Sequence record: LC788708.1
DNA: 64,000 nt
Origin: Escherichia coli phage AZ21
Direction: 5' to 3' (one strand)
In this document: positions 787 through 22,947 of the stretch, piece by piece
Numbering within the stretch: position 1 is the stretch's first letter
Layout: every line of letters begins with the position of its first letter
Notes under the pieces: model-generated
Seen by the model: only the letters and a program-made list of their open reading frames with translations
What the model was told of the DNA's origin: nothing
The model's database searches: none
Made by a program: the position numbers and the translations under genes

Positions 787-815
787 TTGCTTAAAGCCCT
801 CTAATTTAGTATAAT
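787..815 (+). promoter_or_regulatory. T5-type early sigma70 promoter
   Basis: TTGCTT-17 bp-TATAAT with AT-rich upstream tract. Confidence 0.6.
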
Positions 816-842
816 ATTCGTATTGAAAGTGAGGAGGGATTT

Positions 843-1121
843 ATGCGAATTTATAACTCAAATTCATTAGGATTTAAACCATTGAGAAAACGTGCACAAT
901 CACCTCGTCAAATAAGAAAGGCTAATATTGGTGAGCCAGAGACACGCCTTCCACCTCCTCCAGAACAACGTTTAGTTTATCTGGACGAAGAATTAGCTGA
1001 ACGCGAAAGAAAAGCTCAAGAAGAGATTGAGCGTAAGAAAATGTGTACTGCTCCAGCGTATAATAAAGGGGCGTATCAATACGTCTCAGATGCCGAACAA
1101 GCTAAGATGGTTGGTAGATAA
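843..1121 (+). CDS. hypothetical protein
   Basis: 92 aa ORF 8 nt after GAGGAGGG RBS and T5-type promoter. Confidence 0.45.
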   Translation: MRIYNSNSLGFKPLRKRAQSPRQIRKANIGEPETRLPPPPEQRLVYLDEELAERERKAQEEIERKKMCTAPAYNKGAYQYVSDAEQAKMVGR

Positions 1122-1137
1122 TTTTTAAAAAATTCAT

Positions 1138-1166
1138 TTGCTAAACGCTTCAAATTCTCGTATAAT
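1138..1166 (+). promoter_or_regulatory. T5-type early sigma70 promoter
   Basis: TTGCTA-17-TATAAT then conserved TTCATAAATTGA leader. Confidence 0.65.
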
Positions 1167-1204
1167 ATACTTCATAAATTGATAAACAAAAAGGAAAACA
1201 AATA

Positions 1205-1720
1205 ATGGCTAAGCAGAAAAACGCAAAAACTCAAGCAGCTCCGGCAGTTAAAACTTTCCCGAAGACTGAGGCTAATCGCAAAGCTCGGCTGGAACGTCAC
1301 CTGCGTAAGCATCCTACAGATGCTCAGGCTGCGCAAGCACTGAATAATCCGGCTCCGATTCGTCAGAAGCCTAAAGCTAAAAATGCCACCCGTAAATCCT
1401 ACAAAATGGTTATGTATGTAGAAAATTACGGCCACAAATCTGTCCCAGTTTCCCTGAGCTTTAACGCTGGGGCTGAATTGTTCTCTCGTAATGGTATGTC
1501 TATGAAAGACTATGAGAAGGCAGTTAACCAGAAGCGTAAACCAACAGCAGATGTATTGCGCGATACTCGTGGACAGTTTGGTTCTGTTAAGCCAAGTATC
1601 TTTGGCGTAGAGTATAGTAAAGATAATGTTCGTGCTCTGTGTTACGGTGTAGGTATTAAGTTCACGGGTGATTCTGCTCGTAAATCTGCTAAACCAGCTC
1701 GCAAGCGTAAAGCGAAGTAA
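1205..1720 (+). CDS. hypothetical basic protein
   Basis: 171 aa, Lys/Arg-rich termini; promoter and RBS AAAGGAAAACAAATAATG; followed by GGGGCGAAAGCCCC hairpin. Confidence 0.5.
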   Translation: MAKQKNAKTQAAPAVKTFPKTEANRKARLERHLRKHPTDAQAAQALNNPAPIRQKPKAKNATRKSYKMVMYVENYGHKSVPVSLSFNAGAELFSRNGMSMKDYEKAVNQKRKPTADVLRDTRGQFGSVKPSIFGVEYSKDNVRALCYGVGIKFTGDSARKSAKPARKRKAK

Positions 1721-1784
1721 TAGATAAATAGGGGCGAAAGCCCCTACAATCGACTAATTCTCTAACTAATCAAGGATATTTTTT

Positions 1785-2000
1785 ATGTTCTCTAAGAAAC
1801 CACGTTCTGTTACTGAAATCGTTGCTTCCTTTACCACTATCACTGATGAGCTTCAAGCTCGTATTGAGGCTGATCAAAAAATCGCTGCTGATATTCAGAA
1901 ACAGCAGGAAGAACTCGCTTTAAAGTTGGCTGAAACCAACAAGAGTGAAAAATCTGCCCAAACTATTATGGAAAATATCCTTAAACTGCTGGGCAAGTGA
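1785..2000 (+). CDS. hypothetical protein (coiled-coil)
   Basis: 71 aa ORF between two GGGGCGAAAGCCCC hairpins. Confidence 0.45.
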   Translation: MFSKKPRSVTEIVASFTTITDELQARIEADQKIAADIQKQQEELALKLAETNKSEKSAQTIMENILKLLGK

Positions 2001-2009
2001 TTTAAATCA

Positions 2010-2034
2010 GGGGGGGGCGAAAGCCCCTCTTATT
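2010..2034 (+). terminator. hairpin terminator
   Basis: GGGGGGGCGAAAGCCCCTC stem-loop then TTATTT; same GGGGCGAAAGCCCC hairpin at 1731-1744. Confidence 0.5.
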
Positions 2035-2044
2035 TGGAGAAACT

Positions 2045-2281
2045 ATGCGTAATTTTGTAGCAAAGAATGATTTTAACCGTGCTAGCACTCATAAGTCCGC
2101 TAGAGATTATACACGACTTTCTAGTCATGAGGTAATGGATACCTGTTATGAAGAGCTGGAAGGTAGCTGGAATGAGTGTCCCGACTTCTCTATGGAAGAG
2201 AACTGGGATGTCAGTGAGGATATGCTTCCTGGTTTTAAAGACCCCAAGAAGTGGGAGTCTATTAAAGAGACAGCTCTTTAA
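2045..2281 (+). CDS. hypothetical acidic protein
   Basis: 78 aa ORF, RBS GGAGAAACTATG. Confidence 0.4.
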   Translation: MRNFVAKNDFNRASTHKSARDYTRLSSHEVMDTCYEELEGSWNECPDFSMEENWDVSEDMLPGFKDPKKWESIKETAL

Positions 2282-2309
2282 TAGTTTTCTACACAATAAA
2301 GGATAAGTT

Positions 2310-3011
2310 ATGAAAGTAAAACCATTTGGTATGCTAGATATTGAATCTCTAGGAACTCCAGGAGATTGTGGTACTACCCATATCGCAATGCCTTCATTCG
2401 CTTTTGTGGCTATGCATGGAATTGATAAAGACCCTGATCTAGTATTTGTTACTTTAGATGTACAAGATCAACTTAATTCTGGTGCCAAAGTTACAGCATC
2501 TACTCTAGCATTCTGGATGGATCAGGCTAAACATAGCCCGTCTGCTATCCACATTATGGAAGCTATGAATGAGCGTAATCCAAAACTGGTTGCCTTCCAA
2601 AATGGTAAACATCATTGCACTAATAAACTTGGCTCTAACCATGCTGCCTTCTCTATGGCTCAAAATATTATGGAGTTGGCTCTAGGCGAAAATGCTTTGT
2701 ATTATGGCAATGGCCCAGAGTTTGATATGACTATCTACTCTGCAAACACTTTCCATGCTGGAACCAATGAAGAAATAGTTCCGTGGAAATTCTGGAACTT
2801 GGGTAATGTTAGATCTCTTCGTAATCTCTGGATGCAAACTGGCTATAGTTATAAAGCTCTAGAAACCGAAGGTATTAGCTGGGCAATAGCTAAAATGGAG
2901 AAGATGGACACCATTCGTTATGGGATCTATCCGGTTAAGCACGACCCAGCATTCGATGCCCTAGTTGAGAGCTATTGTGTTGCAGCTATGATCGAAAAAA
3001 TGAAAATTTGA
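2310..3011 (+). CDS. DEDDh-type 3'-5' exonuclease-like protein
   Basis: 233 aa; MLDIESLG (Exo I D-x-E), YGNGPEFDMTIY (Exo II), KHDPAFDALVESY (Exo III H-x4-D) by eye. Confidence 0.55.
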   Translation: MKVKPFGMLDIESLGTPGDCGTTHIAMPSFAFVAMHGIDKDPDLVFVTLDVQDQLNSGAKVTASTLAFWMDQAKHSPSAIHIMEAMNERNPKLVAFQNGKHHCTNKLGSNHAAFSMAQNIMELALGENALYYGNGPEFDMTIYSANTFHAGTNEEIVPWKFWNLGNVRSLRNLWMQTGYSYKALETEGISWAIAKMEKMDTIRYGIYPVKHDPAFDALVESYCVAAMIEKMKI

Positions 3012-3012
3012 T

Positions 3013-3041
3013 TTGCTTCCGGCTCCAAAATTCTGTATAAT
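3013..3041 (+). promoter_or_regulatory. T5-type early sigma70 promoter
   Basis: TTGCTT-17-TATAAT, leader ATATTCATAAATTTGAGA as in T5 PN25-class promoters. Confidence 0.65.
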
Positions 3042-3081
3042 ATATTCATAAATTTGAGAAAACAATAAAAGGAAAACAAAT

Positions 3082-3264
3082 ATGCCAGTATCTAAAAATG
3101 TTCGTAAAAATGGTAAGAAAGCTACTCGTAATCTGGGTATCCGTCGTATGGCTGAACGTCAATCAGGTATCCAGAAAATCTTTGATCTGCTAAATCGTGC
3201 TAATCCTAAAATTGATAACAGTAACGATACTGTTCTGCGCACCCTGCTGGCAATTGGTCTGTAA
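3082..3264 (+). CDS. hypothetical basic protein
   Basis: 60 aa ORF behind T5-type promoter and RBS AAAGGAAAACAAATATG. Confidence 0.4.
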   Translation: MPVSKNVRKNGKKATRNLGIRRMAERQSGIQKIFDLLNRANPKIDNSNDTVLRTLLAIGL

Positions 3265-3317
3265 TAGACCAAATTTAAACAAATTCAAATCTCAAACTTC
3301 ATATAAGGAAGCAAATA

Positions 3318-3956
3318 ATGACTACTCGTATCTCTAAAACTCGCGCTCTGGCAACTATCAAATCTCTGGAAGCTAAAATCCGTAAAGCTACTGAACAACA
3401 GCTTCTGATCGCTGTTGGTGAAGGTAAGGATAAAAACCAGGTTGTAGTTGGCGCTGCAATCGAAGTAGATGCCCTGTCTACTCGTATTAAAACTGATTTC
3501 CAATCTCTGCTGGATATGATGTCTCAGCGTGATCGTATTAAATCTGCTCTGATTAAGAGCAATGCAGAAACAATCGTTGAGATTGGTTCTCGTAAGATGA
3601 CTGTTGCGGAAGCAATTGAAGCTAAGCGTTCTATGGAGCTTAAAGCTCAGCTGCTGGCTAACATGCGTAAGCAGTTCCATGCCGCTACGATTAAGTTTAA
3701 TACGCAGAAAGCACAGTTTGATGCTAAATATGAGCGTTTGCAGGATAGCATGGCTACCCGCGATAAGAAAACTTCCGAAGATGAAGTTAAAATGCAGCTC
3801 AATCTGCTGGAACTCAAGAATACTCCATTCTTGATTGATCCGCTGGAACTGGAGAAGCTGATTAAGCAGCATGACGAGGAATACCAGGACTTTGCAACAA
3901 ATGTTGACTTTGTTCTATCCGAGTCTAACGCCTCTACCTTCATTGAAGTAGAGTAA
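3318..3956 (+). CDS. hypothetical protein (coiled-coil)
   Basis: 212 aa ORF, RBS AAGGAAGCAAATAATG. Confidence 0.5.
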   Translation: MTTRISKTRALATIKSLEAKIRKATEQQLLIAVGEGKDKNQVVVGAAIEVDALSTRIKTDFQSLLDMMSQRDRIKSALIKSNAETIVEIGSRKMTVAEAIEAKRSMELKAQLLANMRKQFHAATIKFNTQKAQFDAKYERLQDSMATRDKKTSEDEVKMQLNLLELKNTPFLIDPLELEKLIKQHDEEYQDFATNVDFVLSESNASTFIEVE

Positions 3957-4339
3957 TAATTTAAAAGCTAGTAAATCGGTAGACGAAAGCCCAAGCATCT
4001 TACCTCGCAGCAGCGGTTGAAATACGAGGTTAAATAAGACCGCTGACCATACTATAAAGTATAATCTATTGGAGATTATGTTTATTACACCAGCCTCTTA
4101 AGCTGACACGTAAGAACAAAGCGTCGTTGATATTACCGACACAACTTCAAAGATCAACATTTAAGTATGAAAGCTGAAAAGTTTAAAGAACTCAAACTTC
4201 TAAACTTCTAAAGCTAAAAGATGCAAAGTATTCGTTGATGATTCAAACCCTAGATCAAAGGTACATGGCTCATAAGATATGGCCTGTGGCGCCTCTAGGC
4301 TGTTTATCGGTTTACTAGTTTCACAATTTAAAAATGTAT

Positions 4340-4368
4340 TTGCTAATTTACTAAGTTATCTGTATAAT
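4340..4368 (+). promoter_or_regulatory. T5-type early sigma70 promoter
   Basis: TTGCTA-17-TATAAT. Confidence 0.65.
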
Positions 4369-4398
4369 ATATTTTTAAATTGATGAAACGAGGCTATT

Positions 4399-4716
4399 AT
4401 GACTTTTCATATTTTGATTGATGATGTGCGTAATCTTCACGGAATGGACATTATCATTCGAACCCCAGAAGCCGCTGTAGAGTTTCTGAATAAAACTGAT
4501 ACCACAGGCCACTTCGTTTATATGGATAATGACTTGGCTGTAGATGGTATGGAAGGTTATCAAATTCTTCGTTTACTCTTAGAATTTGGGCAGAGACCAA
4601 AGAAAGTGGTACTAGTAACCTCAAACCCAGTAGCTAAGCAAAATATGCGTAATGATTTGCTTGACTTAGGGTATAAAGAAAATCCCAATCGTGTTGAATA
4701 TGATTGGCAGGAGTAA
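4399..4716 (+). CDS. hypothetical protein, CheY-like receiver-domain pattern
   Basis: 105 aa; HILIDDV (acidic pair), FVYMDNDL (Asp), KVVLVTSN (Thr/Ser) spaced like receiver-domain strands; tentative. Confidence 0.4.
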   Translation: MTFHILIDDVRNLHGMDIIIRTPEAAVEFLNKTDTTGHFVYMDNDLAVDGMEGYQILRLLLEFGQRPKKVVLVTSNPVAKQNMRNDLLDLGYKENPNRVEYDWQE

Positions 4717-4721
4717 AAAGA

Positions 4722-5171
4722 ATGAAGGCAGCTTTGCTTTTAGTAGCTGCCCTTACCTTCAGCTTTAGTAGTCAGGCATCGCACGATGCAAAAGAAATAG
4801 ATTGCATTGCTAAAAATATCTATTTCGAGAGTCGCGGTGAGGGCATAAAGGGAATGACGGCGGTTGCACATGTTACTAAAAACCGTGTAAACTCCGGTAA
4901 ATTCCCAGATTCCTACTGTAAAGTAGTATATCAGTCTAACCAGTTCTCTTGGGTATCTAAGAGACCAAAAGTTGATAAAACTGATGAGGCTTGGCAAACC
5001 GCTAAGAATTTAGCTAGAGTGATATACTACGTTGATTTACCACAAGATCCTACGTATGGAGCACTATACTTCCATAGTGGTAAAGATAAACCTTACTGGA
5101 CAAAGAAGTTTAAGAAAACAACTAAGATTAAGGGACATACGTTTTATAAACCTGTTGTCACTAAAACTTAA
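4722..5171 (+). CDS. secreted SleB-like cell-wall hydrolase (Hydrolase_2-like)
   Basis: N-terminal signal peptide MKAALLLVAALTFSFSSQA; IAKNIYFESRGEG...AHVTKNRV...YCKVVYQSNQFSW motif; AGGAG RBS; start moved from TTG 4704 to ATG 4722. Confidence 0.6.
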   Translation: MKAALLLVAALTFSFSSQASHDAKEIDCIAKNIYFESRGEGIKGMTAVAHVTKNRVNSGKFPDSYCKVVYQSNQFSWVSKRPKVDKTDEAWQTAKNLARVIYYVDLPQDPTYGALYFHSGKDKPYWTKKFKKTTKIKGHTFYKPVVTKT

Positions 5172-5179
5172 AAATTTAC

Positions 5180-5208
5180 TTGCTTAGCTACTTAAATTTC
5201 TGTATAAT
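5180..5208 (+). promoter_or_regulatory. T5-type early sigma70 promoter
   Basis: TTGCTT-17-TATAAT, leader TTTCATAAATTAATGAGAGG. Confidence 0.65.
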
Positions 5209-5239
5209 ACTTTCATAAATTAATGAGAGGAAGCGAAAT

Positions 5240-5410
5240 ATGAAATCAGTTGTAATTATTGGTGTTAACACTCGCGGTATTCGTACTACGAAAACTGTTA
5301 AAACTTCTAACGTTGCTGAAATCACTACGAACCCTAAAAAGTTTGATTTCGCCAAAGTCTCAGCAGTTATGACAGAACAATCTTTTAACCAAGCATTGGG
5401 GATGAAATAA
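5240..5410 (+). CDS. small hypothetical protein (56 aa)
   Basis: Short ORF directly behind promoter and GAGAGGAAGCGAAATATG RBS; stop overlaps next start (TAATG). Confidence 0.3.
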   Translation: MKSVVIIGVNTRGIRTTKTVKTSNVAEITTNPKKFDFAKVSAVMTEQSFNQALGMK

Positions 5411-5844
5411 TGGGTGAAAATATTCTAATGACCCTTCGTGGACTGCTTAGTCTAGCACGTACCCACGGTGATAAGGAGAGGGCACTTAATCTTCAGACCA
5501 TGATTGGTGATCTGCAACGTATTGATAAAGACATTGTTACTCGAACCGAGTTCGTAGCCTATCTGAAAGCTCAGATTAAGGCTCTAGAAAATGCAAAACA
5601 ACGCGCTATTAAAGTTGGTACGGAAGTTCCTACTGATGTAGACTATGAGCAACTGCTTTATTCCATGCTGCAAGAGTATCAGCCAAGTCAACTGACTGAA
5701 GTTCAGATTCGTGAGTATTTTGCAGAACTGGTTAAATTAAACCCAGGTATTACCAAAGCTCTATTAATGAAAACTATTAAGGCAGAATTTCCTGGACGTT
5801 ATGACGGTAAAACAACTGCTTTGATTGCTAGTGAATTTTTCTAA
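5410..5844 (+). CDS. hypothetical protein
   Basis: 144 aa ORF translationally coupled to upstream small ORF. Confidence 0.5.
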   Translation: MGENILMTLRGLLSLARTHGDKERALNLQTMIGDLQRIDKDIVTRTEFVAYLKAQIKALENAKQRAIKVGTEVPTDVDYEQLLYSMLQEYQPSQLTEVQIREYFAELVKLNPGITKALLMKTIKAEFPGRYDGKTTALIASEFF

Positions 5845-5852
5845 AAATTCAC

Positions 5853-5881
5853 TTGCTAAATGCTTATAAATTCTATATAAT
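5853..5881 (+). promoter_or_regulatory. T5-type promoter driving tRNA island
   Basis: TTGCTA-17-TATAAT about 80 nt upstream of first tRNA-like element. Confidence 0.6.
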
Positions 5882-5958
5882 ATATTCATAAATTAGATGA
5901 TAATTAGGCATCTAATTTATAAATAGTGGGGTGTGGAAATCACTTATGTAGTAACACT

Positions 5959-6030
5959 GCCGTCCTAGTATAATTGGTATTATCAAGCCGTAACTGGTGG
6001 AAGATGTAGGTTCGAATCCTACGGTCGGTA
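5959..6030 (+). tRNA. tRNA-like element (anticodon arm not resolved)
   Basis: GTAGG-TTCGAAT-CCTAC T-arm and 7-bp acceptor pairing (one mismatch) 70 nt downstream of promoter; no clean anticodon stem found by eye. Confidence 0.35.
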
Positions 6031-6532
6031 AGAACTGGATAACTGATGCTTTTAACGTAAAAGCTTCCGAGGTTAGTTGCGCACTGCCTAAACCACGCGG
6101 TAGTTGGTTCCAGACTAACCAACCAGTCTGCTGAATAGTTTTATTACGATTTAACTATGTCCAGGCTAAAGAAGAACTTTAGAAGGTATTCTAGGATAGT
6201 GAAGTTCTTTCTCCACATCGGAGTAGTTTTTCAAGCTATCCACAAAGTGGGAAATGCTGACATGAGAGATGTCACTAATGGTGCACAATAGCACAGGTAA
6301 TTCGCGATAATTCCTGTTGAGTAGCAGCAAAAGGCGGGAAGTCATGACCCCAAGCCTAACCGAGTCCTCAATATACCGCAGGGCATAACCACTAAGTCAC
6401 CCTGACTTAAACTGGAAAATAATAGACGTTACTGTATTTTGTCTTGAAATACTTAATGAGTGAGACTTATGACTCTCCCGGTATCGTCTGTATTTTTAAG
6501 AGTTTTTACGAGAGTTCTTAAAAATACTTAAA

Positions 6533-6607: not shown

Positions 6608-6641
6608 ATTTTATTAACTGTAACTAAAACAAAGGAAACAT

Positions 6642-7647: not shown

Positions 7648-7792
7648 GTATTTAAGGCAAAAGAAAAGCCCATAAGTTATTCAACTAAGGTCTTTAGTAC
7701 TTAATTCTTTAGAATCATATACTATTATTGCAGCAACAACGTGCTACCACTAAATGCCCTACGATTTTCCTCTAAAAAGTTAAAAAATTCGA

Positions 7793-7821
7793 TTGCTTGA
7801 ATGCTAAATTCTCTGTATAAT
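7793..7821 (+). promoter_or_regulatory. T5-type early sigma70 promoter
   Basis: TTGCTT-17-TATAAT, leader TTTATAAATTTGAGAGAGG. Confidence 0.65.
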
Positions 7822-7851
7822 ATATTTATAAATTTGAGAGAGGAATCAAAT

Positions 7852-8148
7852 ATGAAACGCATTGTACTTGCATTGACTCTAGTATCTACTTCTGTATTTG
7901 CTGCTCCACAACAGGAACTTTGTCAAGTTCAAGTTTGTAATAAGCTAGAACGATTTACTTTGGATATTTGGTCACACATTAAAGATAATATGGGTGAGCA
8001 ATGTTTTGATATTGTTCTGCCAAAAGAACAAGCTGTTCCTGGTGCTGTTCTCAGCTCAGAATCACGTTGGTGGCAAGGTTCTTCTATCAATCCAACTAAG
8101 AAGTCAGTGACACGTATCAAACAAGTGTATCAGTGCAGTGTTCAGTAA
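7852..8148 (+). CDS. small secreted protein
   Basis: Signal peptide MKRIVLALTLVSTSVFAAP; RBS GAGAGAGGAATCAAATATG; upstream in-frame extension overlaps promoter so start set at 7852. Confidence 0.5.
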   Translation: MKRIVLALTLVSTSVFAAPQQELCQVQVCNKLERFTLDIWSHIKDNMGEQCFDIVLPKEQAVPGAVLSSESRWWQGSSINPTKKSVTRIKQVYQCSVQ

Positions 8149-8156
8149 AATTTCAC

Positions 8157-8185
8157 TTGCTTAATGCCGAAATTTTCTATATAAT
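8157..8185 (+). promoter_or_regulatory. T5-type early sigma70 promoter
   Basis: TTGCTT-17-TATAAT. Confidence 0.65.
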
Positions 8186-8216
8186 ATATTCTATAAATTA
8201 TAGATAGGAGTCATAT

Positions 8217-8735
8217 ATGACTGTTGACGAGTTAAAACAACATCTTTTATCTAGGGGCTTTGATAGTGATAAGTATCACTGTTGGCTCTCTCCACATGGA
8301 TGGTTAACAGTTCCACTGTATGATTTCTCTGGCATGTTACGTGGATATCAAACATATAACCCTAGTGCAGCTAAAGGTCATGGAAAATGTCCTTCTGAAG
8401 CTAAATATTTTACGCATTCTTCTACTCAATGTCTATGGGGTTTAGAAACTCTTACAGGTAATGAAGACCTAGTATTAGTTGCAGAATCTGTATTTAAAGC
8501 TGTGGCACTACACAACGCGGGATATCCCGCACTAGCAATGCTAGGATCTTCCCCTAGCAAAGCACTGCTAAAGCAGCTAAAATTACAACCTTTTAAAGTA
8601 GTAGCCGTAGGCGATAATGATTCTGCTGGTGAGAAGTTTGCTAAAAAACTAAATGGGTTTACTTCCCTCATGGATTTAGATGAAATGAATACAGAAAACT
8701 TGAAAAATTTTCTTGCCATGAAGCTAAATTTCTAA
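8217..8735 (+). CDS. Toprim-domain (DnaG-like) protein
   Basis: 172 aa; VLVAESVFKAVALHNAGYPALAMLGS...VVAVGDNDSAGEKFAKKL resembles primase Toprim E...DxD motif; no zinc-ribbon or polymerase domain. Confidence 0.45.
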   Translation: MTVDELKQHLLSRGFDSDKYHCWLSPHGWLTVPLYDFSGMLRGYQTYNPSAAKGHGKCPSEAKYFTHSSTQCLWGLETLTGNEDLVLVAESVFKAVALHNAGYPALAMLGSSPSKALLKQLKLQPFKVVAVGDNDSAGEKFAKKLNGFTSLMDLDEMNTENLKNFLAMKLNF

Positions 8736-8741
8736 TATAAT
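8713..8741 (+). promoter_or_regulatory. promoter embedded in 3' end of Toprim gene, driving tRNA-Ser/Met
   Basis: TTGCCA-17-TATAAT then TTCATAAATTTGG immediately before tRNA-Ser. Confidence 0.55.
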
Positions 8742-8755
8742 ATATTCATAAATTT

Positions 8756-10117: not shown

Positions 10118-10206
10118 CTCCTCCAAGCAGAAATTTTAAAAATGTACTTGCTTTTTGCTTAAGATTTCTGCTATAATAGTTATATAAGTTGATGAGAGGA
10201 ATCAGA

Positions 10207-10482: not shown

Positions 10483-10518
10483 CTGATACAGCACTGAGCA
10501 AGTTCTTTAAAATTTGAC

Positions 10519-10547
10519 TTGCTCAGTGCCTTAAAACTTGATATAAT
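10519..10547 (+). promoter_or_regulatory. promoter upstream of tRNA-Tyr
   Basis: TTGCTC-17-TATAAT. Confidence 0.55.
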
Positions 10548-10612
10548 ATTTATCTAATTTGGAAACATATTTAAAAGTGTTTAAATGAGAATTTTTGAAT
10601 ACTTCTAAATAT

Positions 10613-12225: not shown

Positions 12226-12579
12226 ATGAGCCGTACATATCGTAAACAATCGGGGAATCGTCACTGGCGTGATGCACATCGTTCTAAATTCAACTTTACT
12301 CTTGGGTACAATCGTCGTTTCTTTGCTTTGAAGGAGCCAGCAGTCCCGTATACTAGAGAAGAAGTTGAAAAGGAATTACAAGACGATATCATTAAATATG
12401 AGAAGAAGGATGGTTATAACTGGAATTCCATTAGTAAGAATGTTAAGTGGCACTCTAATAAAATGGTTCGTCAAGGGAATCGTCAAGAACTTCACCGCGT
12501 GATGAAAGATCCAGAAAATTACGACTATAATCGCGATCATGACATGCGTAAGCGTGGGTTATGGTGGTGCTATGACTAA
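12226..12579 (+). CDS. hypothetical protein
   Basis: 117 aa ORF, RBS GGAGGTATTATG. Confidence 0.5.
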   Translation: MSRTYRKQSGNRHWRDAHRSKFNFTLGYNRRFFALKEPAVPYTREEVEKELQDDIIKYEKKDGYNWNSISKNVKWHSNKMVRQGNRQELHRVMKDPENYDYNRDHDMRKRGLWWCYD

Positions 12580-12596
12580 ATTCTGAAATAATTCAT

Positions 12597-12625
12597 TTGC
12601 TAAACCTCTCTTTTCTTGCTATAAT
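12597..12625 (+). promoter_or_regulatory. T5-type early sigma70 promoter
   Basis: TTGCTA-17-TATAAT, leader TTTATAAATTGATGAGAGAGG. Confidence 0.65.
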
Positions 12626-12655
12626 ATGTTTATAAATTGATGAGAGAGGTTTGAA

Positions 12656-14627: not shown

Positions 14628-14781
14628 GATTGATACTAAATCAACTTACTAGCAAAAGCAAATAATGACAAAGTCCAGCCTGCACTTTTGCGACTGGGCT
14701 ATTTTTATAATAAAATTTTAGTTGCTTAGATGCCCAAACTTTTGTATAATATGTTTATAGATTGAGGCAAGAGGATTAAAT

Positions 14782-17534: not shown

Positions 17535-17544
17535 GTAATTTTAA

Positions 17545-17575
17545 GCCAGGGTTTAACGACCCTGGCTTTTCTTTT
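17545..17575 (+). terminator. rho-independent terminator
   Basis: AGCCAGGGT-loop-ACCCTGGCT followed by TTTTCTTTT. Confidence 0.75.
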
Positions 17576-17637
17576 ATCTAAAATTCTTCTTGACAACGAC
17601 AAAATTTTGTGCTCCAAAGAAAATCTTTAAAAACACA

Positions 17638-17666
17638 TTGTAATTTTCCTCCAAAATTAGTATAAT
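17638..17666 (+). promoter_or_regulatory. promoter for holin-endolysin operon
   Basis: TTGTAA-17-TATAAT followed by GAGGAGG RBS. Confidence 0.5.
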
Positions 17667-17690
17667 GGTACTGGTTAGAGGAGGTTACAA

Positions 17691-18347
17691 TTGGAAAAGT
17701 TCTTACAATTATTAACGGTACTGCTCCAAGAAGCGAAAGATCCAGCATCGCTTCTTAAACGTCTGCTAACTATCTTAGTTGCTGTCATTATTTTCTTATT
17801 TGTTAGTAATACTAGCGAGGTGATGTCATTCTTAAAGACTTTCTCCACGTCTGCGGTTCTACAGGATGTTCAAACTCAAAGGATAGATAACTTTCCTAAT
17901 GTAGCTAGAGAAAAGAGCATGGTACTCTTTTCTCAAACGGGTGCGGATGCTGTTTTTGTAGTCAAGTATAAACCCGATGCCATTAATGATTATTCTAACA
18001 TTATTGCATGGGAAAGCAATGCGCAATTAGATAGGGCTGACTTGGCCGATAAAGCAGTAAATAAAACGTCTGAGCTATACAGACGTCACTTAGAGGGCTT
18101 TAACTACGCATCGGATTTAAGTGTAAGAGTAAATAAATATACGGGGTTAAATATACCTGCGTTTAAGAACGTTACTTTTAATTACATATACACTTGTCCA
18201 TATTTCAATCTAAACAATATCTATGCTGGATATATTGGTATTGCTTGGAAAGATAATCCTGTAGATGCAGCCGATTCTGAGAGATTTAAGGAATATTTAA
18301 CAAAGCTCTGTTCTCCACAACAGAGATCTTTAGGTAGATCAATATGA
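17691..18347 (+). CDS. putative holin
   Basis: 218 aa, single N-terminal TM helix, immediately upstream of and overlapping endolysin; TTG start behind GAGGAGG RBS. Confidence 0.55.
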   Translation: MEKFLQLLTVLLQEAKDPASLLKRLLTILVAVIIFLFVSNTSEVMSFLKTFSTSAVLQDVQTQRIDNFPNVAREKSMVLFSQTGADAVFVVKYKPDAINDYSNIIAWESNAQLDRADLADKAVNKTSELYRRHLEGFNYASDLSVRVNKYTGLNIPAFKNVTFNYIYTCPYFNLNNIYAGYIGIAWKDNPVDAADSERFKEYLTKLCSPQQRSLGRSI

Positions 18348-18757
18348 GTTTTAAATTTGGTAAAAATAGCGAAAAACAATTAGCTACCGTTAAGCCAGAG
18401 CTACAAAAAGTAGCTCGTAGAGCGTTAGAATTATCCCCATATGATTTCACAATCGTACAGGGTATTCGTACAGTAGCACAAAGTGCCCAGAATATTGCTA
18501 ATGGTACTTCATTTTTAAAAGATCCTAGTAAAAGCAAGCATATTACTGGGGATGCGCTTGATTTTGCTCCATATATTAATGGCAAAATTGATTGGAATGA
18601 CTTAGAAGCATTTTGGGCGGTTAAAAAGGCTTTTGAACAAGCGGGTAAAGAACTAGGTATTAAACTTCGTTTTGGTGCTGATTGGAATAATTCTGGAGAC
18701 TATCACGATGAAATAAAACGTGGTACCTATGATGGCGGTCATGTCGAACTAGTTTAA
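18344..18757 (+). CDS. lys: endolysin, L-alanoyl-D-glutamate peptidase (T5 type)
   Basis: 137 aa; peptidase M15-like HITGDALDF...DGGHVE zinc-site pattern; length equals T5 endolysin; followed by terminator. Confidence 0.85.
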   Translation: MSFKFGKNSEKQLATVKPELQKVARRALELSPYDFTIVQGIRTVAQSAQNIANGTSFLKDPSKSKHITGDALDFAPYINGKIDWNDLEAFWAVKKAFEQAGKELGIKLRFGADWNNSGDYHDEIKRGTYDGGHVELV

Positions 18758-18768
18758 TTAATAATTGA

Positions 18769-18791
18769 GGCGGGAATATTCCCGCCTTTTT
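18769..18791 (+). terminator. rho-independent terminator
   Basis: GGCGGGA-ATATT-CCCGCC followed by TTTTT, after endolysin. Confidence 0.75.
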
Positions 18792-18834
18792 AGGCAAAGG
18801 GGGCTTTAATAATTTTTGAAGATAGGAGAAAGCC

Positions 18835-19251
18835 ATGTTTGCAGAACTATTCACTATGATGCTGCTAAGTATCTGGAAAATAAGTCTAGTAGTATTCGTT
18901 TTAATGATAGTCTTTACTATCCTTGCATTAACTACCCGAAATAGCTTATTAATAAAGGTTATTCACGGACTAGAGTATATAATTATGGGTTCATTCGGCG
19001 TTTGTAAATGCAATTGCCATAGAGATACGAAATATTGTTGGTTATGGATGGAACTAGAGAATCCTATATCCATAGCTTTGGCTGTTTCATTCGGCATGAT
19101 TCTTATGGCCCTTACTCTAGCATTAATACCTTTGATGTTAGCTGGGGGAGTTACAGCGTATTTCACCCTTTTCTCCCCGATACTTATGTACTCAATTTAC
19201 CCGATAACTATGTATCTAGTTAGGAAAAGATTTATCCATGCAGTAGATTAA
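18835..19251 (+). CDS. polytopic membrane protein
   Basis: 138 aa with about 4 hydrophobic helices; RBS AGGAGAAAGCCATG. Confidence 0.45.
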   Translation: MFAELFTMMLLSIWKISLVVFVLMIVFTILALTTRNSLLIKVIHGLEYIIMGSFGVCKCNCHRDTKYCWLWMELENPISIALAVSFGMILMALTLALIPLMLAGGVTAYFTLFSPILMYSIYPITMYLVRKRFIHAVD

Positions 19252-19264
19252 GATAAAAAAGTAG

Positions 19265-19293
19265 TTGACTTTTAGCCCTACTTATTATATAAT
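19265..19293 (+). promoter_or_regulatory. T5-type early sigma70 promoter
   Basis: TTGACT-17-TATAAT. Confidence 0.6.
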
Positions 19294-19328
19294 ATATACA
19301 TAAATTAGTTAAGAGAGGTATATATATT

Positions 19329-19757
19329 ATGTCTGATCGTTTCTATACTCAAATGGCGGAACATTTTCGTATACCACATTACGAGCTAAACATTGCACTC
19401 CGTGATCATGACTCTCCTGAGTACAAAAAGCTCGAAAAGAAAGCGGAAAAATCTATTGATACAAAGGTAGGTGCATCTATGTCTAAGGGCAAAAAGTTAA
19501 CTCGTCTTGATCTTAATAAAATTTTAACTGAACTTTTGGGTACTGATATTGAAGGTGCTAAATTACCGCTTCTTGTACTAGAGACTATGATTAAAAAGGT
19601 CAAAAATAAAGAATATAAGAAGGTAGAAGTCCCGGAAGGCAGATTAAAAGCTCCTTATCAGGAAGCATTAACCGAGTGTTTGGGTGTAAATCTTGATCTG
19701 AGCACCGCAACCGTAAAAACTATGAAAAACTTCTTAGAGGCCATTAATAAATTGTGA
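19329..19757 (+). CDS. hypothetical protein
   Basis: 142 aa ORF behind promoter, RBS AGAGAGG. Confidence 0.45.
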   Translation: MSDRFYTQMAEHFRIPHYELNIALRDHDSPEYKKLEKKAEKSIDTKVGASMSKGKKLTRLDLNKILTELLGTDIEGAKLPLLVLETMIKKVKNKEYKKVEVPEGRLKAPYQEALTECLGVNLDLSTATVKTMKNFLEAINKL

Positions 19758-20260
19758 TTACTAGGGAAAGATTATTAGAGGTACTAGAGTATCACGAAGA
19801 TGGTACTCTAACCTGGAAACCTAGACCAGAAGGTACAAGAGGTTGGAATACCAGCCTTAACAATATGCCTGCTGGGTCTATTAATGCTGATGGCTATCTA
19901 ATGCTCTCTATTGATAGAGAACGAATACTTGCGCATAGGGCAATCTTCTTTATGCACAAAGGCTATTTACCTGATATAGTAGATCATGATGATACCAATA
20001 CTCTAGATAATCGTATTGGTAACTTAAGAGAAGCTACAAAAGCTCAAAATGCTTTTAATAGGAAATCGGCTAATAAAAATAACCTATTGGGATTAAAAAA
20101 TATATCTCAAAGAGGGAAGTCTTTTAGAGTAAAAATCTCTAGGGCAGGAATCAATTATATGAAAACGTGCAGTTCTTTGGAAGAAGCAATTGCATGGAGA
20201 GATGAAAAACTAGAAGAACTCCACGGTGAGTTTGCCAGCAAAGGAAATAAAAATGTCTAA
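19754..20260 (+). CDS. HNH homing endonuclease with AP2-like DNA-binding domain
   Basis: 168 aa; LAHRAIFFMHKGYLPDIVDHDDTNTLDNRIGNLREAT HNH core plus LKNISQRGKSFRVKISRAGINYMKTCSSLEEAIAWRDEK AP2-type tail. Confidence 0.7.
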   Translation: MITRERLLEVLEYHEDGTLTWKPRPEGTRGWNTSLNNMPAGSINADGYLMLSIDRERILAHRAIFFMHKGYLPDIVDHDDTNTLDNRIGNLREATKAQNAFNRKSANKNNLLGLKNISQRGKSFRVKISRAGINYMKTCSSLEEAIAWRDEKLEELHGEFASKGNKNV

Positions 20261-20549: not shown

Positions 20550-20582
20550 AAGCCTGATTTTAGCTGATCAGGCTTTTATTTT
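20550..20582 (+). terminator. rho-independent terminator
   Basis: AAGCCTGAT-loop-ATCAGGCTT followed by TTATTTT. Confidence 0.7.
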
Positions 20583-20584
20583 AC

Positions 20585-20613
20585 TTGCTTTTTGCTAAAA
20601 ATTTTGGTATAAT
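20585..20613 (+). promoter_or_regulatory. T5-type early sigma70 promoter
   Basis: TTGCTT-17-TATAAT. Confidence 0.6.
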
Positions 20614-20640
20614 ACTTATATAAATTGATTGGAGGATTAA

Positions 20641-20886
20641 ATGTTAGCGGAACAAGCAAAACGTTTAGCTAGAATAAATAGAGCTGCACTCCTTAAGAGC
20701 AAGAAGAAAACGTATAAGTATGTTAAAAAGAGAATAGTTTCTTCTGTAGGGATTGGAAGTTCTTTTGTACAGTTTAATCGTGATGAAATTAGTTATGAAG
20801 TTATAAAAGCCCTCTATAAAGAGGGTTATACTCTCCAACTATCTAATGATTATGGCACAACTATTTTAACTGTTATTTGGGAATAA
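20641..20886 (+). CDS. hypothetical basic protein
   Basis: 81 aa ORF behind promoter, RBS GGAGGATTAAATG. Confidence 0.4.
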   Translation: MLAEQAKRLARINRAALLKSKKKTYKYVKKRIVSSVGIGSSFVQFNRDEISYEVIKALYKEGYTLQLSNDYGTTILTVIWE

Positions 20887-20888
20887 TT

Positions 20889-21752
20889 ATGAAAAAAGAA
20901 TTTAATGTACATAAAACTCTAGTAGTGCCTGATGATGCCAACTTGTTTTTCGTTGGTGATATTCATGGATGCAATGATTTGCTAGAAGATGCGTTGAAGT
21001 TAGCTGGGTATAATAGCAAAAAAGATTGCGTAGTATGTGTCGGAGACTTAATAGACCGAGGCACACAAAACCTACAAGTTTTAGCCAAATTCCTGTATAA
21101 TCCACGTTTTATCAGTGTACGTGGTAATCATGACCAATTTATGATTGTAGGAGATTGGGCTAATTGGATGTATAATGGTGGTATGTGGGCTATGAATGAA
21201 CTAGATGCAGACACCATTAAAAATATTGCCGAAGATATGGCTGAAAAAATGCCAGTATTCCTAACTGTTAGACATCGTGGTAAGAAGTTTGGTGTTGTTC
21301 ATGGTGGTGTACCTTTTACGTACAAAGAATGTGGTAATGAAGTAGAAACCCCAGTATGGGATAATCTTATTGCACAAATAGAAGCAGCTAAGGAAAACCC
21401 ACATGACCATCCTGAATACCATATTGAACCATATTTATGGGATCGAGATGTAATCCAAGAAATAGGCTTCTACTTGTCCAAAAATGGTGAGGAACACCCG
21501 TATTTCCAGCGTTATGCAGGATTTAAAGAAAAATACATGGTAGAAGTGCCAGAAGTTAAAGGTGTAGATTTCGTGTTTCACGGACATACTGGAGTTCCTT
21601 ACCCACTTCTTTATAAGAACCGTGTTTATCTTGATACTGGCGGTGTTTTCAACGGGCAGTTGACGGTTGCGCAAGTTAACGATGAAACTGGCAAAATCAC
21701 CACATTTACCACAGATAAAAATAATAGCTGCGGTGTACAGAGGATTCTTTAA
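20889..21752 (+). CDS. Ser/Thr protein phosphatase (calcineurin-like, lambda PPase type)
   Basis: FFVGDIHGC, VCVGDLIDRG, VRGNHD metallophosphatase motifs in canonical order. Confidence 0.8.
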   Translation: MKKEFNVHKTLVVPDDANLFFVGDIHGCNDLLEDALKLAGYNSKKDCVVCVGDLIDRGTQNLQVLAKFLYNPRFISVRGNHDQFMIVGDWANWMYNGGMWAMNELDADTIKNIAEDMAEKMPVFLTVRHRGKKFGVVHGGVPFTYKECGNEVETPVWDNLIAQIEAAKENPHDHPEYHIEPYLWDRDVIQEIGFYLSKNGEEHPYFQRYAGFKEKYMVEVPEVKGVDFVFHGHTGVPYPLLYKNRVYLDTGGVFNGQLTVAQVNDETGKITTFTTDKNNSCGVQRIL

Positions 21753-22273
21753 TGAAAGTTCGCTTTTGGAGTGATCTCCACTTGGGGCATGCAAATATTA
21801 CTAAATTCAGACCAATCTTCTCTACTATGGAAGAGCATGATGAATTTATTATGGATACTATTACATCTATGAAAGATAAGCGTACAGTATTCTATATTTT
21901 AGGAGACGCATTTGTATCTAGAAATGGTTTGGAGAAGTTCGAAAAACTCTTTGGCAATGTTAGAACTACGTTAGTTTTGGGAAACCACGACTTAGAACGA
22001 GAAGGATTATCTTTCAAAGACTTAATAGGGGTTGTAGATAATGTACAATCACTAGTTAAATATAAAAACTTCTGGCTTTCCCATGCTCCAGTGCACCCTG
22101 GGGAGCTGAGGGGTAAAAAGAACCTACATGGACATACTCACTTTGAGTTAATGGGAGACCCTCGTTATATTAACGTTTGTATCGAGTATGCAAAATCTCC
22201 AGTACGCCTGGAAGACATCATGAGTGGTAAGTACACTTCACATGATAAAACTAGCTGGATGTTAAATGTCTGA
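21752..22273 (+). CDS. calcineurin-like metallophosphoesterase
   Basis: 173 aa; WSDLHLGH, ILGDAF, LGNHD motifs; ATGA overlap with upstream phosphatase. Confidence 0.65.
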   Translation: MKVRFWSDLHLGHANITKFRPIFSTMEEHDEFIMDTITSMKDKRTVFYILGDAFVSRNGLEKFEKLFGNVRTTLVLGNHDLEREGLSFKDLIGVVDNVQSLVKYKNFWLSHAPVHPGELRGKKNLHGHTHFELMGDPRYINVCIEYAKSPVRLEDIMSGKYTSHDKTSWMLNV

Positions 22274-22381
22274 GTATATAGCTGAGGGTATTATTAAACG
22301 AATCATACAAGCGATAGCAATACTTATAATCATTTGTATTGCTATTGGTGCGGGATTAGGCATTTTAATTAAAAGTTTTAT

Positions 22382-22410
22382 TTGCTAAAATGCTTAAGTT
22401 TCTGTATAAT
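22382..22410 (+). promoter_or_regulatory. T5-type early sigma70 promoter
   Basis: TTGCTA-17-TATAAT. Confidence 0.65.
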
Positions 22411-22440
22411 TACTTTATAAATTGATGAGAAGGAATCAAA

Positions 22441-22869
22441 ATGAACAAAGTTGATAAAGCTCTAGTTTTCGCAGCAGCAGATAAGTTTGAACAAGTTAAG
22501 GCAACTTTCCGAACCTTGTTCCAGTCTTACGTTCAAGATAAGTCTAATCCTATCTCTGAACGTTTGATGGTCTGGGAATGCTACGCAACTGATGCCCTAT
22601 TAATGGCATATTACAGGGGTGAGGCAGACGAAGAGATCGAAGAACTTTTTACTGAAGATACTCCACGTTATCAGGCAGTTTATTTCCAAGACCTAGCTGA
22701 GCGCATCATTCCTGATGATCTTTGGAATAAATACTACGGTGATCCTGAAGATGAAGGAATGACTCCAGAAGCCTGTATTGAGCTGATCTGCAAAGATCAT
22801 CCTGAAATTGCAGAGAAATTTGAAAAAGTTTTTGCTTCTGAGTTCTCCGGCGTTGTTAACGATTGGTAA
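22441..22869 (+). CDS. hypothetical acidic protein
   Basis: 142 aa behind promoter, RBS GAGAAGGAATCAAAATG. Confidence 0.5.
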   Translation: MNKVDKALVFAAADKFEQVKATFRTLFQSYVQDKSNPISERLMVWECYATDALLMAYYRGEADEEIEELFTEDTPRYQAVYFQDLAERIIPDDLWNKYYGDPEDEGMTPEACIELICKDHPEIAEKFEKVFASEFSGVVNDW

Positions 22870-22886
22870 GTAATTAAAAAATTCAG

Positions 22887-22915
22887 TTGCTTTAAGCCTT
22901 AAAATTCTGTATAAT
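22887..22915 (+). promoter_or_regulatory. T5-type early sigma70 promoter
   Basis: TTGCTT-17-TATAAT, leader TTCATAAATTAATGAGAGAGG. Confidence 0.65.
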
Positions 22916-22947
22916 AAGTTCATAAATTAATGAGAGAGGAAATTCTA

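What the first reader, a model, noticed from the sequence alone, without database searches (positions are those of the whole stretch)
787..22930. Family of 15 or more early promoters sharing an invariant transcribed leader
Almost every early gene is preceded by AAAAATT..TTGCT(T/A)-17 bp-TATAAT followed by (A)TATTCATAAATT(G/A)A(T/G)GAGAGG and the start codon. This matches the architecture of the classic strong T5 promoters. The conserved downstream block spans initial transcribed sequence plus RBS, implying selection on the leader as well as the -35/-10.
Basis: partly seen in the sequence, partly recalled or inferred. Interest (0 to 1): 0.4.

Follow-up and report, generated by a model that had tools for sequence, protein, structure and literature searches.

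The report
Known T5-type early promoter family
The window is the early region of a T5-like coliphage, and the repeated block is its well-known family of strong host-polymerase promoters, whose conserved first transcribed bases have been studied since the 1980s; it is real but not new.

Summary
Between 787 and 22930 there are 17 plus-strand copies of AAAAATT-n3-TTGCTW-17 bp-TATAAT-6/7 nt-ATAAATT(GA). One more copy lies on the minus strand at 39950. Of 110 exact TATAAT sites in the window, 19 carry ATAAATT (one mismatch allowed) 6-7 nt downstream, against 0.9 expected.

The window is a Tequintavirus, about 100% identical to E. coli phage AZ23. The copies sit at the positions of promoters already annotated in phage T5 (P-H207, P-D/E33, P16-17, P15a-c, P14a and others). 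GenBank AY587007 also annotates the -10 plus leader block as 'repeat c'.

The downstream block has two parts:
- A promoter-fixed discriminator and initial transcribed sequence. It is kept at promoters that drive tRNA or stable RNA, in a distant Serratia phage, and at 98% identity between orthologues.
- A Shine-Dalgarno zone richer in information than ordinary ones.

'Invariant' and 'almost every gene' are overstated. ATAAATT is exact in 12 of 17 copies, GAGAGG occurs in 6 of 17, and only 14 of 52 genes are promoter-led.

One side result: three gene-cassette indels between related phages have both ends inside promoter copies. Breakpoints are nevertheless no commoner in promoters than in other intergenic DNA.

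Verdict: already known, low interest.

The parts
762..842 (+). Early promoter with variant leader. -35 at 787-792, -10 at 810-815, inferred +1 at 822, leader ATTGAAAGTGAGGAGGG, ATG at 843. Orthologue of the T5 promoter at 46337-46411.
   Evidence: The same ATTGAAAGT leader subtype occurs in Serratia phage Slocum.
1113..1204 (+). Early promoter, equivalent to T5 P-H207. -35 at 1138, -10 at 1161, +1 at 1174, ATG at 1205 (31-nt leader).
2988..3081 (+). Early promoter (T5 44393-44467; 'repeat c copy 4' in AY587007). -35 at 3013, -10 at 3036, +1 at 3048, ATG at 3082.
4315..4398 (+). Early promoter. -35 at 4340, -10 at 4363, +1 at 4375 (TTAAATT variant), ATG at 4399.
5155..5239 (+). Early promoter, equivalent to T5 P-D/E33. 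-35 at 5180, -10 at 5203, +1 at 5215, ATG at 5240.
5828..5912 (+). Early promoter, equivalent to T5 P16-17. It drives the stable-RNA ('RNAX') and tRNA-Arg unit. -35 at 5853, -10 at 5876, +1 at 5888. It keeps ATAAATT but has no Shine-Dalgarno or ORF.
7768..7851 (+). Early promoter, equivalent to T5 P15a. -35 at 7793, -10 at 7816, +1 at 7828, ATG at 7852. It is the junction of the nadR-pnuC indel relative to AZ23, GRNsp8 and TrudiRoth.
8132..8216 (+). Early promoter in front of the TOPRIM gene. -35 at 8157, -10 at 8180, +1 at 8193 (7-nt discriminator), ATG at 8217.
8688..8755 (+). Early promoter, equivalent to T5 P15b. It drives tRNA-Ser and tRNA-Met. -35 at 8713 (TTGCCA), -10 at 8736, +1 at 8748. 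The 8-nt ATAAATTT block is the whole 5' leader before tRNA-Ser (8756).
10123..10206 (+). Early promoter, equivalent to T5 P15c. -35 at 10148, 18-bp spacer, -10 at 10172, +1 at 10184 (ATAAGTT), ATG at 10207.
10494..10578 (+). Early promoter, equivalent to T5 P14a, upstream of tRNA-Tyr. -35 at 10519 (TTGCTC), -10 at 10542, +1 at 10554 (CTAATTT variant).
12572..12655 (+). Early promoter. -35 at 12597, -10 at 12620, +1 at 12632, ATG at 12656.
14697..14781 (+). Early promoter directly after a hairpin. -35 at 14722, -10 at 14745, +1 at 14757 (ATAGATT), ATG at 14782.
19240..19328 (+). Early promoter. -35 at 19265 (TTGACT), -10 at 19288, +1 at 19300, ATG at 19329.
20560..20640 (+). Early promoter abutting a terminator hairpin. 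-35 at 20585, -10 at 20608, +1 at 20620, ATG at 20641.
22357..22440 (+). Early promoter, equivalent to T5 P-F30. -35 at 22382, -10 at 22405, +1 at 22417, ATG at 22441.
22862..22947 (+). Early promoter. -35 at 22887, -10 at 22910, +1 at 22922, ATG at 22948.
39891..39975 (-). It drives an 88-aa lipoprotein ORF.
17613..17690 (+). Contrast case. A sigma-70 promoter in the same region (TTGTAA-17-TATAAT) that lacks the ATAAATT block. It drives the holin and endolysin genes.
24385..24846 (+). Homologue of gpT5.026 (98% identical). This is the phage RNA-polymerase-binding protein reported to weaken polymerase contact with the -5/+2 segment of N25.
   Evidence: PMC7472727

Best explanation
These are the sigma-70-dependent early promoters of a T5-like phage (Tequintavirus). 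They are read by unmodified host RNA polymerase, occur about once per 1.3 kb, and each heads a short operon of one to roughly nine annotated genes or a tRNA/stable-RNA unit.

Each cassette runs from about -55 to +25 and contains:
- an UP-like A-tract at -45..-39
- a -35 hexamer TTGCTT
- a 17-bp spacer whose 3' half is A/T-rich
- a perfect TATAAT
- an A/T-rich discriminator beginning with a near-invariant A at -6
- an inferred start at the A of ATAAATT

The conserved downstream block is two elements. The first is the discriminator plus the first 7-9 transcribed bases, ATAAATT(GA). It belongs to the promoter and acts at the DNA/polymerase level, in open-complex properties, start-site choice and fast promoter escape. 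It may also mark the early class for phage-directed shut-off. The second is a purine-rich Shine-Dalgarno (GAGAGG/AGGA) placed for translation. The two look like one block only because leaders are 21-34 nt long.

Shown here: the family, its non-randomness, its orthology to annotated T5 promoters, purifying selection on +1..+7, and its independence from translation. Taken from the literature: recognition by sigma-70 polymerase and the roughly tenfold effect of the native N25 transcribed sequence on productive transcription. Inferred: the +1 positions, the UP-element function and any role in early-to-late switching.
For: Family and statistics.

Identity of the phage and orthology to annotated T5 promoters. 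AY587007 annotates 'putative early promoter T5Pnn' and 'repeat c' over the -10 plus leader.

N25 shares the layout.

The ITS core is independent of translation. All three promoters in front of RNA genes keep it or a close variant (5853, 8713, 10519). At 8713 it is the entire 8-nt tRNA leader.

Selection. Identity between orthologues:
- -10: 100%
- +1..+7: 98.4%
- -35: 97.3%
- A-tract: 94.3%
- +8..+17: 93.2%
- spacer: about 89%
- third codon positions: 78%

Serratia phage Slocum shares detectable nucleotide similarity with the window in only one 300-bp stretch. It nevertheless carries about 20 promoters of the form TTGCnn-17-TATAAT-6 nt-ATAAATTGA. A scan of IMG/VR with the composite motif hit mostly contigs of 91-128 kb, the T5-like size range, plus five shorter ones of 11-73 kb.

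Literature. Replacing N25 +3..+20 lowers productive RNA about tenfold, and the native sequence favours fast escape (Kammerer 1986 as described in PMC12464699). All known T5 early promoters share ATATT in the discriminator, and gpT5.026 lowers polymerase affinity for -5/+2 (PMC7472727).
Against: No transcription start, strength or timing was measured for this phage. The +1 positions rest on analogy with N25.

The exact ATATT discriminator that Klimuk et al. emphasise occurs in only 6 of 17 copies here, so the class signature may lie elsewhere in the block.

Part of the similarity between copies could reflect common descent or gene conversion rather than selection on every position. The spacer is also more similar between copies than chance would give.

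Orthologue identities come from BLAST chains, which favour matching columns.
Confidence: 0.93

Rival explanations
1. The conserved downstream block acts mainly in the mRNA. It would be a 5' leader that enhances translation (an A/U-rich S1-binding stretch plus a strong Shine-Dalgarno) or sets mRNA stability, rather than a promoter element.
For: The Shine-Dalgarno zone of promoter-led genes is more uniform than that of other genes: 5.80 against 2.34 bits, and AGAGG in 7 of 14 against 4 of 37. The leaders are A/U-rich and weakly folded.
Against: The ATAAATT core keeps a fixed distance from the -10, not from the ATG; leaders range from 21 to 34 nt. It is retained at three promoters that drive tRNA or stable RNA and have no ORF. 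Predicted leader folding does not differ from other translation start regions (p = 0.74). No Rfam family matches. In Slocum the core is conserved while the Shine-Dalgarno varies.
Confidence: 0.15
2. The repeated promoter cassettes act chiefly as portable homology for recombination, so that single-gene modules are gained, lost or swapped. This would be the T5-group counterpart of the PeSL cassettes of T4-type phages, and their uniformity would be maintained by that process.
For: Three distinct indels among eight phages have both ends inside promoter copies, with 28-73 bp of overlap. They are nadR-pnuC (1.8 kb), a 98-aa ORF and the TOPRIM gene. TrudiRoth carries a hybrid promoter made of the upstream half of 8157 and the downstream half of 8713. 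These three account for 3 of 6 indels flanked by 20 bp or more of repeat.
Against: Breakpoints are not enriched in promoters relative to other non-genic DNA: 11 of 36 observed against 12.0 expected, P = 0.70. All three events lie in one 1-kb zone. About 35 other indels have 16 bp or less of overlap or are homing-endonuclease inserts. Only a few promoters have the adjacent stem-loop that defines PeSLs. Strong orthologue conservation and conservation in Slocum are explained by promoter function alone.
Confidence: 0.3
3. The TAAATT at +2..+7 is a -10-like element (TAnnnT) that makes sigma-70 re-engage and pause the polymerase close to the promoter. That would create a regulatory checkpoint common to all early transcripts.
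For: Read directly from the sequence: TAAATT matches the two key positions of the -10 hexamer (A at position 2, T at position 6) and is 92-100% conserved between orthologues. Established knowledge: -10-like elements in early transcribed regions cause sigma-dependent pauses at lambda PR' and at lac.
Against: No pause is reported for N25 in the papers read here. N25 is described as limited at escape, with escape near +11/12, and this is explained without a sigma-dependent pause. A/T-rich sequence yields TAnnnT matches easily.
Confidence: 0.08

Closest known systems
Bacteriophage T5 early promoters (PN25, P-H207, P-D/E33, P15a-c, P14a and others; Gentz & Bujard 1985; annotated in NC_005859 and AY587007)
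   Same: Same phage genus and the same genomic positions. Window 1138 is identical to P-H207 over the stretch compared and window 5180 is near-identical to P-D/E33; the others are less close. The architecture matches: A-tract, TTGCTT, 17 bp, TATAAT, A/T discriminator, ATAAATT(T)GAGAGAGG.
   Different: Nothing of kind. This phage has one extra copy (8157) in front of the TOPRIM gene, because a small ORF is inserted after the P15a equivalent. It also lacks most of T5's tRNA-region copies, because that region is shorter here.
N25 initial transcribed sequence / downstream sequence region (Kammerer et al. 1986; Hsu and co-workers)
   Same: The conserved +1..+9 ATAAATT(T)GA is the start of the N25 transcribed sequence, whose replacement lowers productive transcription about tenfold (PMC12464699).
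   Different: That work concerns a single promoter in vitro. Here the same core is seen across 18 copies in the window, about 20 of 29 annotated promoters in the T5 stretch examined (9-58 kb), and a Serratia phage.
PeSL cassettes of T4-type phages (Arbiol et al. 2010, PMC2839356; Comeau et al. 2014, PMC4122927)
   Same: Repeated early-promoter cassettes flank small accessory genes in a variable region, and some indels have their junctions inside the repeats.
   Different: There is no regular stem-loop partner. No breakpoint enrichment over other intergenic DNA was found. The phage family and the promoter sequence are both different.
E. coli UP element and A/T-rich discriminators of strong sigma-70 promoters
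   Same: The A-tract at -45..-39 has the position and composition of the proximal UP subsite. The A/T discriminator is as in other strong phage promoters.
   Different: The resemblance is recalled from general knowledge. Alpha-CTD dependence was not tested.

Membership tests
T5-type early sigma-70 promoters | -35 and -10 hexamers for sigma-70 with a 17 +/- 1 bp spacer | tested here: met
   All 17 have TATAAT, 16 have a 17-bp spacer and 14 have TTGCT(T/A).
T5-type early sigma-70 promoters | A/T-rich block around -43 | tested here: met
   A at -45..-42 in 16-17 of 18 copies, 1.1-1.3 bits per column. Orthologue identity is 94.3%.
T5-type early sigma-70 promoters | Conserved sequence in the early transcribed region (ATAAATT, TTGA near +7) | tested here: met
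   19 of 110 TATAAT sites against 0.89 expected. 1.0-1.6 bits per column at +1..+7. The same block occurs in annotated T5 promoters and in N25.
T5-type early sigma-70 promoters | Position in the early region of a T5-like genome, orthologous to mapped T5 promoters | tested here: met
   Collinear alignment to T5 with promoters at matching sites. The phage is a Tequintavirus.
T5-type early sigma-70 promoters | Transcription by host sigma-70 polymerase with early kinetics, and a mapped +1 | not testable with these tools
   Needs RNA 5'-end mapping or in vitro transcription. Literature covers T5 itself only (PMC7472727, PMC12464699).
PeSL-like mobile regulatory cassettes | Composite of a stem-loop terminator immediately followed by an early promoter | tested here: not met
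   Only a few copies (14722, 20585) abut a hairpin; most have none.
PeSL-like mobile regulatory cassettes | Insertion, deletion or replacement junctions fall in the repeated cassette | tested here: inconclusive
   Three clear promoter-flanked indels and one hybrid promoter. There is no enrichment against a non-genic null: 11 of 36 observed, 12.0 expected, P = 0.70.
PeSL-like mobile regulatory cassettes | Excised circles or deletions between tandem cassettes detectable in infected cells | not testable with these tools
   Requires PCR on lysates.
Sigma-70-dependent promoter-proximal pause elements | A -10-like hexamer in the first transcribed bases | tested here: met
   TAAATT at +2..+7 fits TAnnnT in 15 of 18 copies. 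This is a weak criterion in A/T-rich DNA.
Sigma-70-dependent promoter-proximal pause elements | A sigma-dependent pause 10-20 nt downstream | not testable with these tools
   Needs in vitro transcription or footprinting.
Structured cis-regulatory leader RNA (riboswitch, attenuator) | Conserved secondary structure or a match to a known RNA family | tested here: not met
   Rfam finds only tRNAs. Leader folding energies equal those of other start regions.

The most novel reading that the evidence does not exclude
The near-invariant A(-6) plus ATAAATT(GA) start is not just an escape-friendly sequence. On this reading it is the cis-acting tag of the early temporal class across Demerecviridae, read by a phage factor in the open or initial transcribing complex to switch early transcription off. 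One candidate is the gpT5.026 homologue encoded at 24385-24846.

In favour: the tag, rather than the ATATT discriminator proposed in the literature, is the best-conserved class-specific part. The one promoter in the early region without it drives the lysis genes, and the PG25-type late promoter at 57349 also lacks it.

A second new element: the same cassettes serve as homology for plugging accessory genes in and out. Examples are nadR-pnuC and the TOPRIM gene reported as an anti-retron factor.
Probability: 0.2. Interest if true: 0.45.

Novelty: already known. Interest (0 to 1): 0.13.

Why it matters
It matters little as a discovery. The promoters, their conserved transcribed start and even their repeat character are in the literature and in GenBank annotation of T5, and one member (N25) is a standard model for promoter escape and the basis of widely used expression vectors.

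The check does add three modest points:
- The conserved core is promoter-fixed and independent of translation.
- Between related phages it is conserved as strongly as the -35, and it persists in a distant Serratia phage.
- A few accessory-gene cassettes have been gained or lost by recombination between promoter copies.

These points could guide work on how T5-like phages switch off early genes while using only the host polymerase, which is still unresolved.

Tried and rejected
Generic sigma-70 consensus scan: no excess over shuffles (49 against 58.7). TTGCTT scores poorly against TTGACA, so this scan is not informative for the family.

A loose search for TTCATAAATT with two mismatches: no excess (191 against 178), so the test had to be tied to the -10 register.

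RNA-level explanations: leader folding does not differ from other start regions, and Rfam finds only tRNAs.

Promoters as recombination hot spots: enriched against all positions (12 against 3.7, P = 0.0003) but not against non-genic positions (P = 0.70). The hypothesis was demoted to a minor, local role.

A search for N25 itself in the window and in T5 9-58 kb found nothing. N25 lies at about 63 kb in T5, outside the part matched here.

The original papers of Gentz & Bujard 1985 and Kammerer et al. 1986 could not be read. Their content is cited only through later papers or marked as memory.

Literature searches for promoter-mediated rearrangements in T5-like phages found nothing relevant.

Full report
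What the window is. A megablast of window 1-20000 against phage genomes gives about 100% identity to Escherichia coli phage AZ23 (Tequintavirus, Demerecviridae). It gives 84-95% identity to several hundred T5-like phages of Escherichia and Salmonella. The region 1-25 kb is collinear with the T5 early region from rnh down to T5.023, on the opposite strand of the T5 record.

The observation. I scanned both strands for TTGnnn, 16-18 bp, and a near-perfect TATAAT, then listed the hits in register. This shows 17 plus-strand copies of one cassette between 787 and 22930. Their -35 starts are 787, 1138, 3013, 4340, 5180, 5853, 7793, 8157, 8713, 10148, 10519, 12597, 14722, 19265, 20585, 22382 and 22887. 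One further copy lies on the minus strand at 39950.

Picking copies by eye is circular, so I ran an unbiased test. Of all 110 exact TATAAT sites in the 64 kb (both strands), 19 have ATAAATT (one mismatch allowed) starting 6 or 7 nt downstream. The expectation from the window's own frequency of that word is 0.89. Sixteen of the 19 also have the -35.

Information content per column is 1.1-1.3 bits for the A-tract at -45..-42 and 1.1-2.3 bits for TTGCT. It is 1.3 bits for A at -6, 1.0-1.6 bits for +1..+7, and only 0.2-0.8 bits for +8..+17.

Counts among the 17 are: TATAAT 17, 17-bp spacer 16, TTGCT(T/A) 14, ATAAATT exact 12 (15 within one mismatch), GAGAGG 6, and ATATT discriminator 6.

So the family and its downstream block are real and far beyond chance. 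'Invariant' holds only for a 7-nt core. 'Almost every early gene' is wrong: 14 of 52 annotated genes are directly promoter-led, and three copies precede RNA genes.

Is the downstream block more than an A/T-rich ribosome-binding context? I anchored sequences on the start codon and compared the 14 promoter-led genes with size-matched subsamples of 37 other genes from the same region. The promoter-led genes carry 3.76 against 0.12 bits at -30..-18, and 5.80 against 2.34 bits in the Shine-Dalgarno zone. No subsample out of 2000 reaches either observed value.

The block resolves into two elements. The ATAAATT core keeps its distance from the -10 (6 nt, or 7 in two copies), while its distance to the ATG varies from 21 to 34 nt. 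It is kept at all three promoters that drive RNA genes. At 8713 the predicted transcript has only the 8-nt ATAAATTT before tRNA-Ser begins. The purine-rich GAGAGG/AGGA follows the start codon instead. Leader RNAs are weakly folded, but no more so than other start regions (p = 0.74). Rfam finds nothing except tRNAs.

Selection. I chained BLAST alignments of the window to six related phages (T5, DT571/2, Spc35, PH204, GRNsp8, TrudiRoth). I then pooled match or mismatch by position relative to +1 over all 17 promoters. Identity is:
- 100% for the -10
- 98.4% for +1..+7
- 97.3% for the -35
- 94.3% for the A-tract
- 93.2% for +8..+17
- 90.4% for the discriminator, with A(-6) at 100%
- 88.5-89.6% for the spacer
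- 92.7%, 96.2% and 78.1% for codon positions 1, 2 and 3

The first seven transcribed bases are therefore held as tightly as the -35.

Serratia phage Slocum shares detectable nucleotide similarity with the window in only one 300-bp stretch. It still has about 20 promoters of the form AAAATT-n3-TTGCnn-17-TATAAT-6 nt-ATAAATTGA, while their Shine-Dalgarno sequences vary.

Comparison with what is known. The T5 RefSeq record annotates 75-bp promoter features at the orthologous sites. Many carry the classical names: P-H207, P-D/E33, P16-17, P15a, P15b, P15c, P14a, P-F30. Aligned, they give the same consensus, TTTAAAAATTTAnTTGCTT ... TATAATATnTnTATAAATTnATGA. Window 1138 is identical to P-H207 over the stretch compared, and window 5180 is near-identical to P-D/E33.

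I recalled the N25 sequence from memory and confirmed it at 100% in T5 (AY587007 63118-63188). There it is annotated 'putative early promoter T5P33', and a 29-bp 'repeat c copy 6' covers exactly the -10 plus leader. Copies 2-4 of repeat c lie on the equivalents of window 7793, 5853 and 3013. So both the promoters and the repeat character of the downstream block are already on record.

From papers I could read: Klimuk et al. 2020 state that all known T5 early promoters share ATATT in the discriminator. They also report that gpT5.026 lowers polymerase affinity for the -5/+2 segment of N25, and that its loss raises early and lowers late transcripts (PMC7472727). Hsu and Han 2025 summarise that replacing N25 +3..+20 cuts productive RNA about tenfold, and that the native sequence favours fast escape (PMC12464699). 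I could not read Gentz & Bujard 1985 or Kammerer et al. 1986.

Mechanism. The best-supported reading is ordinary. These are strong sigma-70 early promoters whose discriminator and initial transcribed sequence are part of the promoter, followed by short leaders with a good Shine-Dalgarno.

Two observations hint at a class-marking role for the core. The one sigma-70 promoter inside the early region that lacks it (17638) drives the holin and endolysin genes. The PG25-type promoter at 57349, which is late in T5, also lacks it. The window also encodes a 98% identical gpT5.026 homologue at 24385-24846. This remains inference.

A side result on recombination. AZ23 differs from the window by a 1.8-kb nadR-pnuC module. 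In AZ23 the module is flanked by two promoter-plus-leader copies, of which the window has one. The alignments overlap by 50 bp running from the spacer to the ATG.

Across eight phages, all-against-all comparison finds three such promoter-flanked indels: nadR-pnuC, a 98-aa ORF, and the TOPRIM gene. The TOPRIM gene corresponds to T5.076, reported elsewhere as the anti-retron factor Rad (PMC10644984; Pfam Toprim). TrudiRoth carries a hybrid promoter made of the upstream half of 8157 and the downstream half of 8713. All three events lie in window 7.8-8.75 kb.

Tested more broadly, 12 of 54 breakpoint clusters fall in promoter cassettes, against 3.7 expected for random positions (P = 0.0003). Against non-genic positions only, 11 of 36 fall there, with 12.0 expected (P = 0.70). 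Most other indels have 16 bp or less of overlap.

So promoter copies sometimes serve as recombination homology, much like the PeSL cassettes of T4-type phages (PMC2839356, PMC4122927). They are not a general hot spot, and they lack the PeSL stem-loop.

Verdict. The feature is already known and annotated in the type phage. Interest is low, and the residual novelty is confined to the class-tag idea and the local cassette exchange.

Noticed in passing
window 57349-57430 (+): A sigma-70 promoter (TTGATA-17-TATAAT) is followed by ATTAAAGAGGAGAAATTAACTATGAGA. From memory, this is letter for letter the 'RBSII' ribosome-binding site of the pDS/pQE expression vectors, said to derive from T5 late promoter PG25. 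It lacks the ATAAATT block.
   Followed up: no
window 7600-8760; L001 11790-13700; L008 11250-11740: The zone between the SPFH-domain gene and tRNA-Ser has five different gene arrangements in eight phages. The units involved are nadR-pnuC, a 98-aa ORF, the TOPRIM gene, and an inverted T5.077-079 module. Each unit has its own early promoter, and three of the indels have both ends inside promoter copies.
   Followed up: yes
window 1728-1747 and 2011-2030: Two copies of a GGGGCGAAAGCCCC hairpin flank the 71-aa gene at 1785-2000. The gene is absent from T5 and DT571/2, with 15-36 bp of overlap at the junction. This is a second kind of repeat at an indel.
   Followed up: partly
window 19754-20260: A 168-aa ORF is present here and replaced or absent in the six other phages compared. 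In T5, DT571/2, GRNsp8 and Spc35 the flanks join with about 5 bp of overlap. Its position matches homing-endonuclease inserts annotated in relatives.
   Followed up: partly
window 5959-6030 (+): Rfam's tRNA model scores 35.5 bits on a stretch that ARAGORN does not call. It lies in the stable-RNA ('RNAX') region downstream of promoter 5853, and T5 record AY587007 marks a pseudo-tRNA in its corresponding RNAX region.
   Followed up: no
window 24385-24846 (+): A homologue of gpT5.026 (150 of 153 residues identical), the phage protein that binds host RNA polymerase and weakens its contact with the promoter discriminator.
   Followed up: partly
window 33100-33160 (-): A copy of the -10 plus leader (TATAAT-atactt-ATAAATTAATGAGAAAT) with no convincing -35 and no ORF directly downstream. 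It may be a decayed or orphan family member.
   Followed up: no
window 787-842; L009 20001 and 29778: A second leader subtype, ATTGAAAGT(G/T)(A/T)(A/G)GGAG, replaces ATAAATT at promoter 787. It recurs at two promoters of Serratia phage Slocum, so it is an old variant rather than decay.
   Followed up: partly
window 28000-32000: GC skew changes sign near 28 kb and the plus-strand promoter family stops. This marks the end of the leftward early block.
   Followed up: no
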